Positions 29,698-49,965 of a DNA stretch of 64,000 bases are shown piece by piece. Below the pieces are notes generated by a model that was not told the origin of the DNA, made no database searches, and saw only the letters and a program-made list of their open reading frames with translations. A program made the translations under genes and the position numbers. Every line of letters starts with the position of its first letter. Position 1 is the first letter of the stretch. The stretch lies in the NCBI RefSeq assembly GCF_020745735.1, contig NW_026867501.1, positions 1-64,000 of the forward strand, written 5' to 3'. The DNA is from Hemiscyllium ocellatum. Lineage: Eukaryota.

Positions 29698-30608
29698 TCA
29701 AAACTTACAAAACTTCATTAGGAGACTCAGTGGATATTTCAATCCATTCTTTAACTCAGCTCTGAATTTACTCTGTGTCCCTGTATAAATAAATGGGTTG
29801 ATACAGGAACTCAAAAACTGAAGCAGGTACCCAGTTTCCTGTTGAATGAATGCCGACTGACTTAAATTGAAACCTGAGAAATAAGGTACATTCGCAATTC
29901 GGACATAGATTGTAGTTATAAAAAATAAAGAATATAACAGGATGAAGCTGCCCGAGATGGCGAAGAGTAAAACCATGGACTTTTTGCGTTTTTCCATCTC
30001 TGGATCCCTCTGATGTTCTCCACTACTCTGAATTCGGAGTCTCCTGCGGGATCTATTGGCCGCAATAATATGTCTTACAGTTAGAGCGTTCAGAAGTAAA
30101 ATCAGAATGAATGGAAGACAAGGGGTTAAAATGGTACGAATCCAATCATAAGCTGCCCATGCAGGGGACGTATAAAATATTAATTTTATGTTGCAGAACC
30201 AGGGTACATTATTAATAATGTAGATAGGTTCATTAATAAAAAACATAAAGGCACTTTTTATGCAACTGAGTGCAGTCACTATTCCAATAACCAGTGCAGC
30301 TGTCCGTTCCGTGCAGTACTTCATTTTCAGTTTCTGACAGGAAATGGCCACAAATCGATCAAAGGTAAAAGCAACTGTCAACCATGCTGAGCAATCAATT
30401 GCTGTGTATATGATGGCATCACGTAGACTGCACACTGGAGTGATGAACAAGAAGCTTGATGGGAAGTAAATTCCAGCAACACGGTTTAATATTACAGCAG
30501 TTACCACGACCAAGAGATCTGCCCCTGCCATGGACACCAGGTAATAAATGATGCAACTAGAAAGGCCACATTTTCTTTGAGAAAGGATCACAATCACTGT
30601 CAGGTTAG
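29698..30608 (-). CDS. GPR139/GPR142-like class A GPCR, exon 2 (911 nt)
   Basis: Acceptor tttctatgacag|CTAACCTG; open to the stop; FTFDRFVAI (DRY-type) and SSCINPFIY (NPxxY) motifs; seven hydrophobic segments together with exon 1. Confidence 0.92.
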
Positions 30609-30802
30609 CTGTCATAGAAACATATATACATGTTTGTAGAAGTAGAGGAGAAATAGAATCTGATAACAACGGATAACGAGAACTAATCTATGAGATTTTG
30701 AATGAAATTGATATTTTTGAGACATGAACTTGAATCAAAAATCACAAATTAACATCCTGACAGCTAGTTCTACTTGCAAAGTGATCGGCTTAGAGTGCCC
30801 CC

Positions 30803-36700: not shown

Positions 36701-38468
36701 ATTGACAGGTTGACTTGTGAGGTCAGCACGGATACTGGAGATTGTCTGTTTGAGGTGAGAAGAGAAAGAGCCCATTTGACTGACGCACATAAGACCTTGA
36801 GAGTCTTGGCAGCACAAACACGGAAAGAATGTCCTCTCCTTTCGGAGACTATTGAACTCGAATCCACGGGTTGATGATTATGGTTTGAGCATTCAATTTA
36901 GAGATAAAGGTGACGTCTTTTGTCACAGGGACTATAAGGTTTTTTTTTAAATTCTGTTTTCTAAAAGGCACTGTAAGCAGGTCTATGATTTTTTTTCGGT
37001 AATGTTAGATAAAATCCTTGCTTTCAGAATACACATGCATTTTAATCGGGGTAGATGAGAATATGAAAAATTCAGATAAGTCTTGATCTTTTTGAACAAC
37101 AGAATAAACAGTTTTCAAACCAGGAAGTTTGTACGAAACCCAGGTTAAAATGAGGATGTTTCCATATTTTGTTCCAGGATATTGACAATCGACTGTGTTA
37201 TCAGCTGTGAGAGATTGGACTGAAACTCATTGACTATCTCTGAGAAGCGCTCGTTCTGAGTAAATATTAAACCATAATCCTGTTAAGCAGTTCAGGAAAA
37301 TGCTGATGGCCCCCTGTCAGTAAAGGGATGTAGTGAGTGGGGGTTTCCTGAATGAGAAAAAAAAACCAACGTCCTGGCCCAACTTTTTAAACGCAAAGAA
37401 TAGCATCAATGAAACCACATGACCAACTTCTCAGCTCATCTCTCTGGGTGCACGTAGGAAGGCAGACTCTACTCACAGAACAGTCTCCAACCCCACTTCC
37501 TGCAGGTCAGAATCATATAGGAGAGGATTTCACATCCAGTTCAAAGGACTTGCCTTAGCAAGTTAATTTGATCATTCTACAGTCTTTCAGTCCAGCTCTC
37601 AGTTCCTGCACTTTGAAAGATTTTTCAGCTTCCAGGCTGTATGAAGCATCTGCTGAACCTGGCAGCAACACGATGTGAGTCCTTGTCCTTACACTGTTTG
37701 CCTGTTTAGCCGGAAAGTACAGATCCAACAATCTTACACTGTGCCCATTTGGTACAGAGCTTCATGAATCCATGAAAAAAAAACAGACATCGTCTCTGGC
37801 TCAGTTCCATTTTGCGGACTAATATCTCCTTTTTTTAATTTCCAGGATGTGTCTGTCATTCAGTGGTACAGACTCCACCAGCATGCATCAAGGAAGAGTG
37901 TCAGTCTCCCACTATCGACTACATTTTCTATGGTGGTTTCTTTGCATATCCTTTGCAGCAGGGCGAATTCGTCAGATAAACAGACTGGAACAGATCGGGG
38001 CCAAATCTTATCTGGAGGATGGTTTGTTTTGATTTCAAATAGAATAGAAAATGCATTTTCGCCAGACGCTCAGAATGTGAAAAATACTGCCACCTCTTAT
38101 TTTAAATCCTTGTACAGTTATAGCAGTAAGTGATGTGGCTTGGCCTGGCGCGATTTCAAAACTGCCTCTGCAAATTATCACAGAAGAATGTGAAAATTCG
38201 AAACCCATCACCCCTGAGCAGCCCTTATCACCCCCTCTTTCCACCAAATCCGCTGTCCTGGTTCTCATAAAACTGGTTTGTCGTTGTTATGGTTTTTAAC
38301 AATTCTAAATGCTGAGGGGATCTAGTAGTGATGTGTTTTATGGGATAATCGTCAGTGAAACGCTGTTGGGAATGACTGATGCCTTTCAGGATTCACGAAT
38401 ACCTGATGGCACCCAATTCTGAAGCTCGCACCTGAAGTCGCTTTTTACTCAAAAAGTCCACATCTGAC

Positions 38469-38522
38469 CAATACCGGGAGATTTGATGCTGTGCAGAAAT
38501 ATTGTGTTACTGGGTGGAGCCA
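38469..38522 (-). pseudogene. Decayed TCR J-like segment (WLHPVTQYFCTASNLPVL)
   Basis: 54 nt directly abutting a 12-RSS; FCTAS is three single-base changes from FGxGT; GT donor at 38468-38467 in phase 0 rather than phase 1. Confidence 0.5.
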
Positions 38523-38550
38523 CACAGTGGATGAGACCTAAACAAACATC
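38523..38550 (-). promoter_or_regulatory. 12-bp-spacer RSS-like element
   Basis: Plus strand reads CACAGTG + 12 nt + ACAAACATC (perfect heptamer, nonamer 7/9 to ACAAAAACC). Confidence 0.6.
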
Positions 38551-48668: not shown

Positions 48669-48707
48669 AGTTTTTGTACGGGGTCAGCCATGTTCCGAGT
48701 CTCTGTG
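48669..48707 (-). promoter_or_regulatory. 23-bp-spacer recombination signal sequence
   Basis: Minus strand reads CACAGAG + exactly 23 nt + ACAAAAACT, directly after YYCALS. Confidence 0.95.
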
Positions 48708-49014
48708 GGGCTCAGTGCGCAGTAATACACTGTGGAGTCTGTAAGTTCTGTTTTCAACACATTCAGCTGGATAGTGCGGTTCACATGATCAAACTTCGAG
48801 GAAATCCGGTCTTCTGGAAGTCTGTCTGCGGTGCTGATATATTGGCTTCTCTTTACGAGAAATTCCATGAAGCCGTTGGAATGCTGCCTGTACCAGAACA
48901 GGGTAGGATCGCTACTTGTTGTAGCTGTGTAATTACAAAATAACAGGACATCATCCCCCTCATTCACTGCGATTGCATCCGGTCGTTGCGTGACGGAATC
49001 TGCACAACAAAGTC
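48708..49014 (-). CDS. TRAV: T-cell receptor alpha/delta-type V exon
   Basis: Acceptor ctcctacag|GA; open frame (G)LCCADSVTQRPDAIAVNEGDDVLLFCNYTATTSSDPTLFWYRQ...LNVLKTELTDSTVYYCALS with conserved Cys, Trp and Cys. Confidence 0.92.
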
Positions 49015-49055
49015 CTGTAGGAGCCAGGAGTGAGAGTAAATTTTAAAGATTACTT

Positions 49056-49441
49056 CACAGAGTCATGGAGATGTACAGCATGGGAACAGACTGTTCGGTC
49101 CTACCAATCCATGCCGAACAGATATCCCAACCCAATCTGATCCCACCTGCCAGTAACCAGCCCATATCCCTCTAAACTCTTCCTATTCATATACCCATCC
49201 AAATGCCTCTTAACAGTTGCAAATGTACCAGCCTCCACCACTTCTACGTAAAAAAAAGTTGCCCCTTCGGTGTTTTTTATATCTTAACCTCAAACTATAC
49301 CTTCTAGTTGTGGACTCCCCCACCCCAGGGAAAATATTTTGTCTATTTACCCTATCCATTTCCCTCATAATTTTATAAACCTCTATAAGGTCACCCCTCA
49401 GCCCGCGACGCTCCAGAGAAAACAGCCACAGCCTGTTCAGC
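49056..49441 (-). mobile_element. CR1 3' fragment inside the leader-V intron
   Basis: cacagagtcatggagatgtacagc tail and ORF2 end; accounts for much of the 896-nt intron. Confidence 0.85.
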
Positions 49442-49910
49442 CTTGAATCAGCCCGTTCACCTTGAAAAGTAAACAGAGAAAGAAGAGGCAGGGAAACTAG
49501 AAAAGGATCAATTTCATGCAACTCAGCGACTGGAACTGTTATGGACTTTTACAGATAAAATAAAATGTTTTTTTTTTAAAACACAGGCCACACTATTAAC
49601 GACATGATTTCCCATTCCCTTTCCGAGAGGATAATTGAAAACAGTCGTTGAGTTTAAAAGTCCTTCCTTTGTCACGTCATTTCAATCGCTTCAGTCCTGT
49701 CTGGATTCCCAGCCAAGCTGTTCCCCTGTCATTGTCCAAGCGTAGTCGTTAATTTCTCCCAGGCTTTGTATAGTTTTCGGAAATCTTAGACGCAGGTGAT
49801 TTTCATCTGTGGAGAATGTGTTTCTGCCTTGCTGTTGCCCGAAGTGCTCAAATCAATGTATATCCCGGCAAAGACCTGAAGCATAAAAGTTCCACAAGTT
49901 TTGAACATAC

Positions 49911-49965
49911 CATTTAGAAGAAAAGTTGCAGCTGTGAGTAGTAAACAAACAGTTCCAGACGACAT
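49911..49965 (-). CDS. TRAV: Leader exon of the TCR V gene (MSSGTVCLLLTAATFLLN, phase 1)
   Basis: 55 nt, hydrophobic, donor AATG|GTATGT, in frame with the V exon. Confidence 0.88.

What the first reader, a model, noticed from the sequence alone, without database searches (positions are those of the whole stretch)
48669..49965. Lone, apparently functional TRAV gene among GPCR, ERV and ZNF sequence
Seen: leader, splice sites, open V frame and RSS are all intact despite a CR1 insertion in the intron and heavy decay around it; I found no other intact V in 64 kb. Inference: it is either the edge of the TCRA/D locus or an orphon V kept under selection (or recently duplicated). An orphon V with a good RSS could be used in trans-rearrangement.
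Basis: partly seen in the sequence, partly recalled or inferred. Interest (0 to 1): 0.7.

Follow-up and report, generated by a model that had tools for sequence, protein, structure and literature searches.

The report
Ordinary shark T-cell receptor V gene
An intact shark T-cell receptor alpha/delta variable gene that looks alone only because the window is short: it is one of dozens of V segments on its scaffold, and it is likely joined to the genome's single alpha J-C region in the normal way, so it is ordinary.

Summary
The gene is real and intact at the coordinates given: 55-nt leader, GT-AG intron holding a LINE fragment, open V exon and 23-RSS. It is not lone. The window is the first 64 kb of scaffold C88, which has 33 V or V-relic places in 378 kb. 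The window is 99.84% identical to C96:657530-721106, where V relics lie on both sides. The genome has one TRAC and one TRDC, with 149 J-alpha and 10 J-delta, on C74, whose far end carries the same V family. In a related species' run, close relatives are spliced leader-to-V, and one is joined to a J-alpha-type segment. Physical linkage of C88/C96 to C74 and rearrangement of this very copy are inferred, not shown. TCR alpha/delta V genes and NAR-TCR cassettes scattered over megabases are already tabulated for other sharks (PMC12227049, Table S1). No evidence for an orphon or for trans-rearrangement. Ordinary.

The parts
49911..49965 (-). Leader exon (L-part 1), 55 nt, starts at ATG, phase-1 splice
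   Evidence: relatives spliced to V in run X1
49015..49910 (-). GT-AG intron, 896 nt
49055..49443 (.). LINE-type fragment inserted in the intron; present in the 95% inverted copy, absent from older paralogues
48708..49014 (-). TCR alpha/delta V exon, open frame, canonical Cys-Trp-Cys
48669..48707 (-). 23-spacer recombination signal (CACAGAG / ACAAAAACT); this heptamer variant is typical of the family
37673..38550 (+). Context: decayed NAR-TCR V (stop after ATG, donor lost, 2- and 6-nt deletions, second Cys lost, heptamer lost) with the 12-RSS of its D at 38523; about 69% nt to the cassette at C88:220.4-227.2 kb, whose two V exons are open
29698..30687 (-). Context: open 329-codon class-A GPCR frame of a large shark family, mostly annotated 'probable GPR139'; such genes are interleaved with the V genes throughout this array

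Best explanation
This is an intact germline TCR alpha/delta V segment within a large, segmentally duplicated array of V genes, NAR-TCR cassettes and GPCR genes in a carpet/bamboo-type shark, and that array is likely the distal part of the genome's single TRA/TRD locus. Mechanism: RAG would pair its 23-RSS with the 12-RSS of one of about 149 J-alpha segments, or of D-delta, in cis, by deletion or inversion. The joined gene would be transcribed from the V promoter, the LINE-containing intron spliced out, and VJ spliced to C-alpha. Shown: gene anatomy, array context, single C-alpha and C-delta with their J arrays on C74, same V family on C74, and splicing and J-alpha joining of relatives in another species. 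Inferred: physical linkage of C88/C96 to C74, and rearrangement of this particular copy.
For: Anatomy. Array: 33 V or V-relic places on C88, many repeated by its internal duplications; relics on both sides of the identical copy on C96. No J-alpha/J-delta-type segment and no C-alpha/C-delta match on the 378 kb of C88; one TRAC and one TRDC in the genome, both on C74; 159 J (149 + 10) and one D there; an ABHD4-like frame 3' of TRAC (name and synteny recalled). Same V family (54-66% aa) with the same RSS variant at C74:4.69-5.09 Mb. 45 of 48 NAR-TCR V matches lie on C63/68/76/88/95/96/1773, 3 weak ones on C62 and none on C74; these cassettes need D-J-C-delta, found only on C74. All 36 matches to the last 10 kb of C74 fall on C96, C95, C1773, C76, C77 or C74. 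Run X1 (another species): contigs about 95%, 89% and 84% alike join leader to V and do not enter the RSS; the 84% one continues into a J that maps into the C74 J-alpha array. A zebra shark RefSeq model joins a 65%-identical V to J and C-alpha; a GPCR of the window's family comes from a contig of the same length, 16,414,262. Orthologous-type pair with C. punctatum P0002 (89%, node 97/90). dN/dS 0.31-0.84 against 27 of 27 older paralogue loci (not independent). White shark chr 27 lists alpha/delta V and NAR-TCR genes in both orientations from 8.2 to 17.1 Mb (PMC12227049 Table S1).
Against: No sequence join between C88/C96 and C74 was found: best identity 76%, none of the matches on C88, only 39 of 14,885 candidates scored. 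The J-joined contig in X1 belongs to an 84% paralogue; the 95% contig stops at the V end with no J shown. X1 is another species, and its RNA label is the tool's guess, though intron-skipping joints support it. The zebra shark chain is a gene model, not a cDNA. In X1 the closest contigs carry the inverted copy's base at all three sites where the two copies differ, two of them amino-acid changing, so the window copy looks like the derived one; C. punctatum agrees at one of the two changed residues and sides with the window at the other.
Confidence: 0.82

Rival explanations
1. The gene is intact but is an unused or redundant recent duplicate: the conserved, used copy is the inverted one at C96:2290145, and C88 itself may be only a false or haplotypic duplicate of C96.
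For: Window 1-63570 equals C96:657530-721106 at 99.84%; C88 has 61-kb and 51-kb internal repeats at 99.4-99.9% that meet 13-base N gaps; C76 carries the same block again. The tree puts both amino-acid changes on the window copy.
Against: Leader, splice sites, frame and RSS are all intact. V exon 3 of 307 and RSS 0 of 39 differ from the inverted copy, against 2.8-4.6% in intron and near flanks (Fisher p 0.026 exon vs intron, 0.0096 exon+RSS vs flanks; gene conversion would also give this). The window's allele is held in 3 of 3 organism-B runs laid that cover the whole stretch like DNA (one study). Redundant assembly would change the copy count, not the nature of the gene.
Confidence: 0.1
2. The V/NAR-TCR/GPCR block is a true orphon array detached from the TRA/TRD core, whose V genes are either unused or recombine between chromosomes.
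For: C88 and C96 are separate scaffolds from C74, and no join was found. One stop-containing family member lies on a large contig, C55:71.87 Mb, so strays occur.
Against: All NAR-TCR cassettes found would then lack their C-delta in cis. Intergenic duplication units are shared with the end of C74. The white shark has such genes in cis over about 9 Mb. The scaffolds are numbered in one run after C62, as C10-C13 follow C9 with shared arrays (that numbering marks unlocalised scaffolds of one chromosome is my inference).
Confidence: 0.06
3. The array belongs to a second TCR mini-locus with its own divergent C gene (like TCR-mu or avian TCR-delta2; names recalled).
For: None positive. Only about 0.28 Mb of the 2.5-Mb C96 was fetched, and the genome-wide C1-set search was saturated (150 of 1019 candidates scored).
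Against: One match each for C-alpha and C-delta genome-wide; no J-alpha/delta-type segment or C match on all of C88, and no C match in the C96 pieces tested; relatives join a J of the C74 array.
Confidence: 0.02

Closest known systems
Elasmobranch TCR alpha/delta V segments of the antigen-receptor complex (Flajnik et al. 2025, PMC12227049; seen: abstract, introduction, first results sections, passages, and part 1 of Table S1)
   Same: Alpha/delta-type V exons scattered in both orientations over megabases and mixed with NAR-TCR cassettes; the paper states that such V exons lie between IgH clusters, and its catshark TCRA/TCRD sits on an unmapped scaffold.
   Different: Here the neighbours seen are GPR139-like GPCR genes and repeats; IgM clusters in this array were not tested. 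The part of Table S1 that I read lists no GPCRs.
Nurse shark TCR alpha/delta V families (Ott et al. 2018, PMC5931798; seen: passages)
   Same: Families of near-identical germline V segments, some identical; five of seven delta V families also make alpha chains.
   Different: Which numbered nurse shark family this V matches was not tested; somatic hypermutation of this V was not tested.
Zebra shark TCR alpha chain model XP_059497704.1 (P0014) and Chiloscyllium punctatum chiPu_0021064 (P0002)
   Same: Same V family: 65% and 89% aa identity; P0002 groups with the window V.
   Different: P0014 is a stitched V-J-C gene model; P0002 is an unnamed V-only model with a different predicted N-terminus.
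NAR-TCR (as described in PMC1845163; seen: passages)
   Same: Neighbouring cassettes on C88 fit: NAR V with leader, a-b loop Cys and no Trp in the WYRK position, D, J, then a supporting V-delta with a CDR1 Cys.
   Different: The V of this finding is not part of such a cassette: it has its own leader and no CDR1 Cys.
Orphon TR V genes, e.g. human TRBV orphons on chromosome 9 (recalled)
   Same: V without J or C on the same scaffold.
   Different: Not isolated: it sits in a dense multi-family array sharing duplication units with the J-C scaffold.

Membership tests
Functional TCR alpha/delta V segment | Split leader with in-frame GT-AG splice to the V exon | tested here: met
   relatives spliced in X1
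Functional TCR alpha/delta V segment | Open V-set exon with conserved Cys, Trp, Cys | tested here: met
Functional TCR alpha/delta V segment | 3' RSS with 23-nt spacer | tested here: met
   one mismatch each in heptamer and nonamer, shared by the family
Functional TCR alpha/delta V segment | Sequence closest to TCR alpha/delta V | tested here: met
Functional TCR alpha/delta V segment | In cis with J-alpha/C-alpha or D-J-C-delta | tested here: inconclusive
   different scaffolds; indirect support only
Functional TCR alpha/delta V segment | Found rearranged in transcripts | tested here: inconclusive
   met for an 84% family member in another species; not shown for this copy
Orphon V | Isolated from the V array of its locus | tested here: not met
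Orphon V | On another chromosome than the J-C core | not testable with these tools
   scaffolds are unplaced here; needs Hi-C or a gapless assembly
NAR-TCR supporting V-delta | No leader exon and an extra Cys in CDR1 | tested here: not met
   own leader, no CDR1 Cys; definition from PMC1845163 passage
NAR-TCR V | a-b loop Cys and no Trp in WYRK | tested here: not met
   WYRQ present; met instead by C88:220566 and, in decay, by window 37846-38124

The most novel reading that the evidence does not exclude
The megabase array of alpha/delta V genes, nearly all NAR-TCR cassettes and interleaved GPR139-like receptor genes is physically separate from the single J-C core, on another chromosome or beyond a large non-TCR interval, so that this V and the whole NAR-TCR repertoire would be assembled by routine long-range or inter-chromosomal V(D)J recombination. 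A milder and likelier novelty (about 0.5 probable, interest about 0.3) is that shark TCR V genes co-expanded with an orphan GPCR family; searches listed no paper on this, which is weak evidence because three key shark TCR papers were not held.
Probability: 0.06. Interest if true: 0.65.

Novelty: new member of a known kind. Interest (0 to 1): 0.15.

Why it matters
As a single gene it matters little: it is one more V of a known family. The by-product is a rough map of this shark's TRA/TRD locus (one C-alpha, about 149 J-alpha, one C-delta, 10 J-delta, a bidirectional V array, and a redundantly assembled array holding about 45 NAR-TCR V copies among GPCR genes), useful for annotation and for repertoire or hypermutation studies. 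It would matter more only if that array proved unlinked to the J-C core.

Tried and rejected
Lone or orphon V: rejected. Supporting V-delta of a NAR-TCR cassette: rejected on leader and CDR1 Cys. Pfam PF09291 did not find the shark C-alpha (one match, E 0.77, below cut-off); it was found through the J of a run contig and an open-frame scan. The C1-set search was saturated by other arrays and says nothing about C63-C96. Sequencing runs: no RNA holder listed. No dovetail overlap between the end of C74 and another scaffold. PDB search with the GPCR gave 0 matches at E<=1e-15. In one search the NAR V query was read in the wrong frame; searches use the right one. Three primary shark papers (PMC7039070, PMC7909615, PMC1458790) were not held, so their locus maps were not seen and may already describe this arrangement in more detail. 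Part 2 of Table S1 was not read. Earlier scan findings: none fitted. No structure prediction was run, as the fold is not in doubt.

Full report
Observation. Pfam gives V-set, and 37 of the 39 PDB sequences matched are TCR alpha chains or TCR constructs. An RSS of this quality occurs once in the window and 0.01 times per shuffle. About 390 nt of the intron is a high-copy LINE-type fragment that older paralogues lack. The nearest database protein is from Chiloscyllium punctatum, 89% identical, so the animal is likely a bamboo or carpet shark.

It is not lone. The window is bases 1-64000 of scaffold C88. The whole 378-kb scaffold gave 33 V or V-relic places of several families on both strands, many repeated by internal duplications. 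Inside the window, 11 kb from the gene, lies a decayed NAR-TCR V with the 12-RSS of its D (37673-38550), about 69% identical to a cassette at C88:220-227 kb that has a NAR V, D, J and a supporting V-delta with a CDR1 Cys, the features given in PMC1845163 (passages). Further relics lie at 65.4 and 70.0 kb and an intact V at 87.0 kb. Window 1-63570 is 99.84% identical to C96:657530-721106. On C96 the 127 kb upstream hold more V relics, NAR-TCR relics and at least seven GPCR copies or relics, so the gene is inside an array, in a stretch where most neighbours have decayed.

The locus core. A contig of run X1 ends in a J segment that maps, with two mismatches, to C74:2.977 and 2.981 Mb. The 360 kb fetched there hold C-alpha (2.954 Mb), 149 J-alpha, C-delta (3.126 Mb), 10 J-delta, one D and the first V genes, with J and C on the minus strand. 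C-alpha and C-delta each have one match in the genome. C88 has no J-alpha/delta-type segment and no match to either C. The window's V family is present at C74:4.69-5.09 Mb in both orientations with the same RSS variant, near the end of that scaffold (5.137 Mb).

Linkage is inferred. No near-identical overlap joins C74 to C88 or C96 (39 of 14,885 candidates scored). Indirect evidence favours one locus. All 36 matches to the last 10 kb of C74 lie on C74 or on five scaffolds of this array. 45 of 48 NAR-TCR V matches lie on these scaffolds and none on C74, which has the only C-delta. In zebra shark a V of this family is modelled with J and C-alpha, and a GPCR of the window's family comes from a contig of the same length. 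Table S1 of PMC12227049 (part 1 read) lists alpha/delta V and NAR-TCR genes in both orientations from 8.2 to 17.1 Mb of white shark chromosome 27, and the text says such V exons lie between IgH clusters.

Use. Run X1, from another species and only guessed to be RNA, has contigs about 95%, 89% and 84% alike that join leader to V across the intron and do not extend into the RSS; the 84% one runs into a J-alpha-type segment. That shows the family spliced and rearranged, and the closest relative spliced. It does not show this copy rearranged.

Selection. dN/dS against 27 older paralogue loci is 0.31-0.84 (not independent). The V groups with C. punctatum P0002, and its sister on C63 with P0003, so both lineages stayed open in two species (20 of 29 fetched paralogue loci were used, near-duplicates left out). 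Against the inverted copy at C96:2.29 Mb the V exon differs at 3 of 307 sites and the RSS at 0 of 39, while intron and near flanks differ at 2.8-4.6% (p 0.026 and 0.0096). Against the case for this copy: X1 sides with the inverted copy at all three sites and the tree puts the changes on the window branch, two of them amino-acid changing, although C. punctatum shares one of the window's residues. Selection on this copy alone is therefore not shown.

Assembly. C88 is largely redundant: besides matching C96, it has 61-kb and 51-kb internal repeats at 99.4-99.9% that meet 13-base N gaps, and C76 carries part of the window again. Copy numbers in this array are upper bounds.

Mechanism and verdict. 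The likely working is ordinary 12/23 V(D)J recombination in cis to J-alpha, or to D-delta since shark V families serve both chains (PMC5931798, passages), followed by splicing to the single C. The orphon and trans-rearrangement reading has no positive evidence and keeps about 6% only because the scaffolds are unplaced. The gene is a new member of a known kind; interest 0.15. Three primary shark TCR papers could not be read and may already describe this arrangement in more detail.

Noticed in passing
window 37673-38550 (+); G000:C88:220394-227290: Decayed NAR-TCR V and D in the window; a NAR-TCR cassette (V-D-J then supporting V-delta, both V exons open) further along C88.
   Followed up: yes
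L047 (G000:C88:227184 and 227244): The supporting V-delta is followed by two 23-RSS in tandem, 60 nt apart; the nearer is imperfect, the farther is perfect consensus. Unexplained; could give alternative coding ends.
   Followed up: no
window 29698-30687; G000:C96:530-690 kb; C62:5-16 Mb: GPR139-like GPCR frames are interleaved with V genes and NAR-TCR cassettes; about 93 of the 150 best genome matches lie on C62 (hand count); 1973 relatives at E<=1e-40. It recalls olfactory receptor genes among distal mammalian TRAV genes (recalled).
   Followed up: partly
G000:C96, about 0.69-1.16 Mb versus 1.89-2.31 Mb: V and NAR V matches mirror each other, suggesting a roughly 0.5-Mb inverted duplication, 90-95% identical where checked: a real palindrome or two haplotypes joined head to head.
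   Followed up: partly
G000:C88:115187-115199 and 269010-269022: 13-base N gaps next to 99.4-99.9% repeats of 13, 51 and 61 kb: probable false duplications.
   Followed up: partly
G000:C74:2.95-3.20 Mb (L085-L109): Core TRA/TRD locus: 149 J-alpha in about 146 kb, many in tandem repeat units; the first V genes lie opposite to J-C; only one D passed my filter.
   Followed up: partly
G000:C55:71867304-71867585: A stop-containing member of this V family (49% aa) on a large contig away from the array: a better candidate for a real orphon, but a pseudogene.
   Followed up: no
window 16135-19855: Decayed LTR-type element with SCAN, integrase and RNase H hits in that order; Gmr1-like Ty3/Gypsy by recall rather than an ERV.
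   Followed up: partly
G000:C88:87314, 103516, 152524, 168783: Several otherwise intact V genes have 22-nt rather than 23-nt RSS spacers.
   Followed up: no
G000:C9:6.5-24 Mb: A very large array of near-identical C1-set exons filled much of the list; not identified.
   Followed up: no
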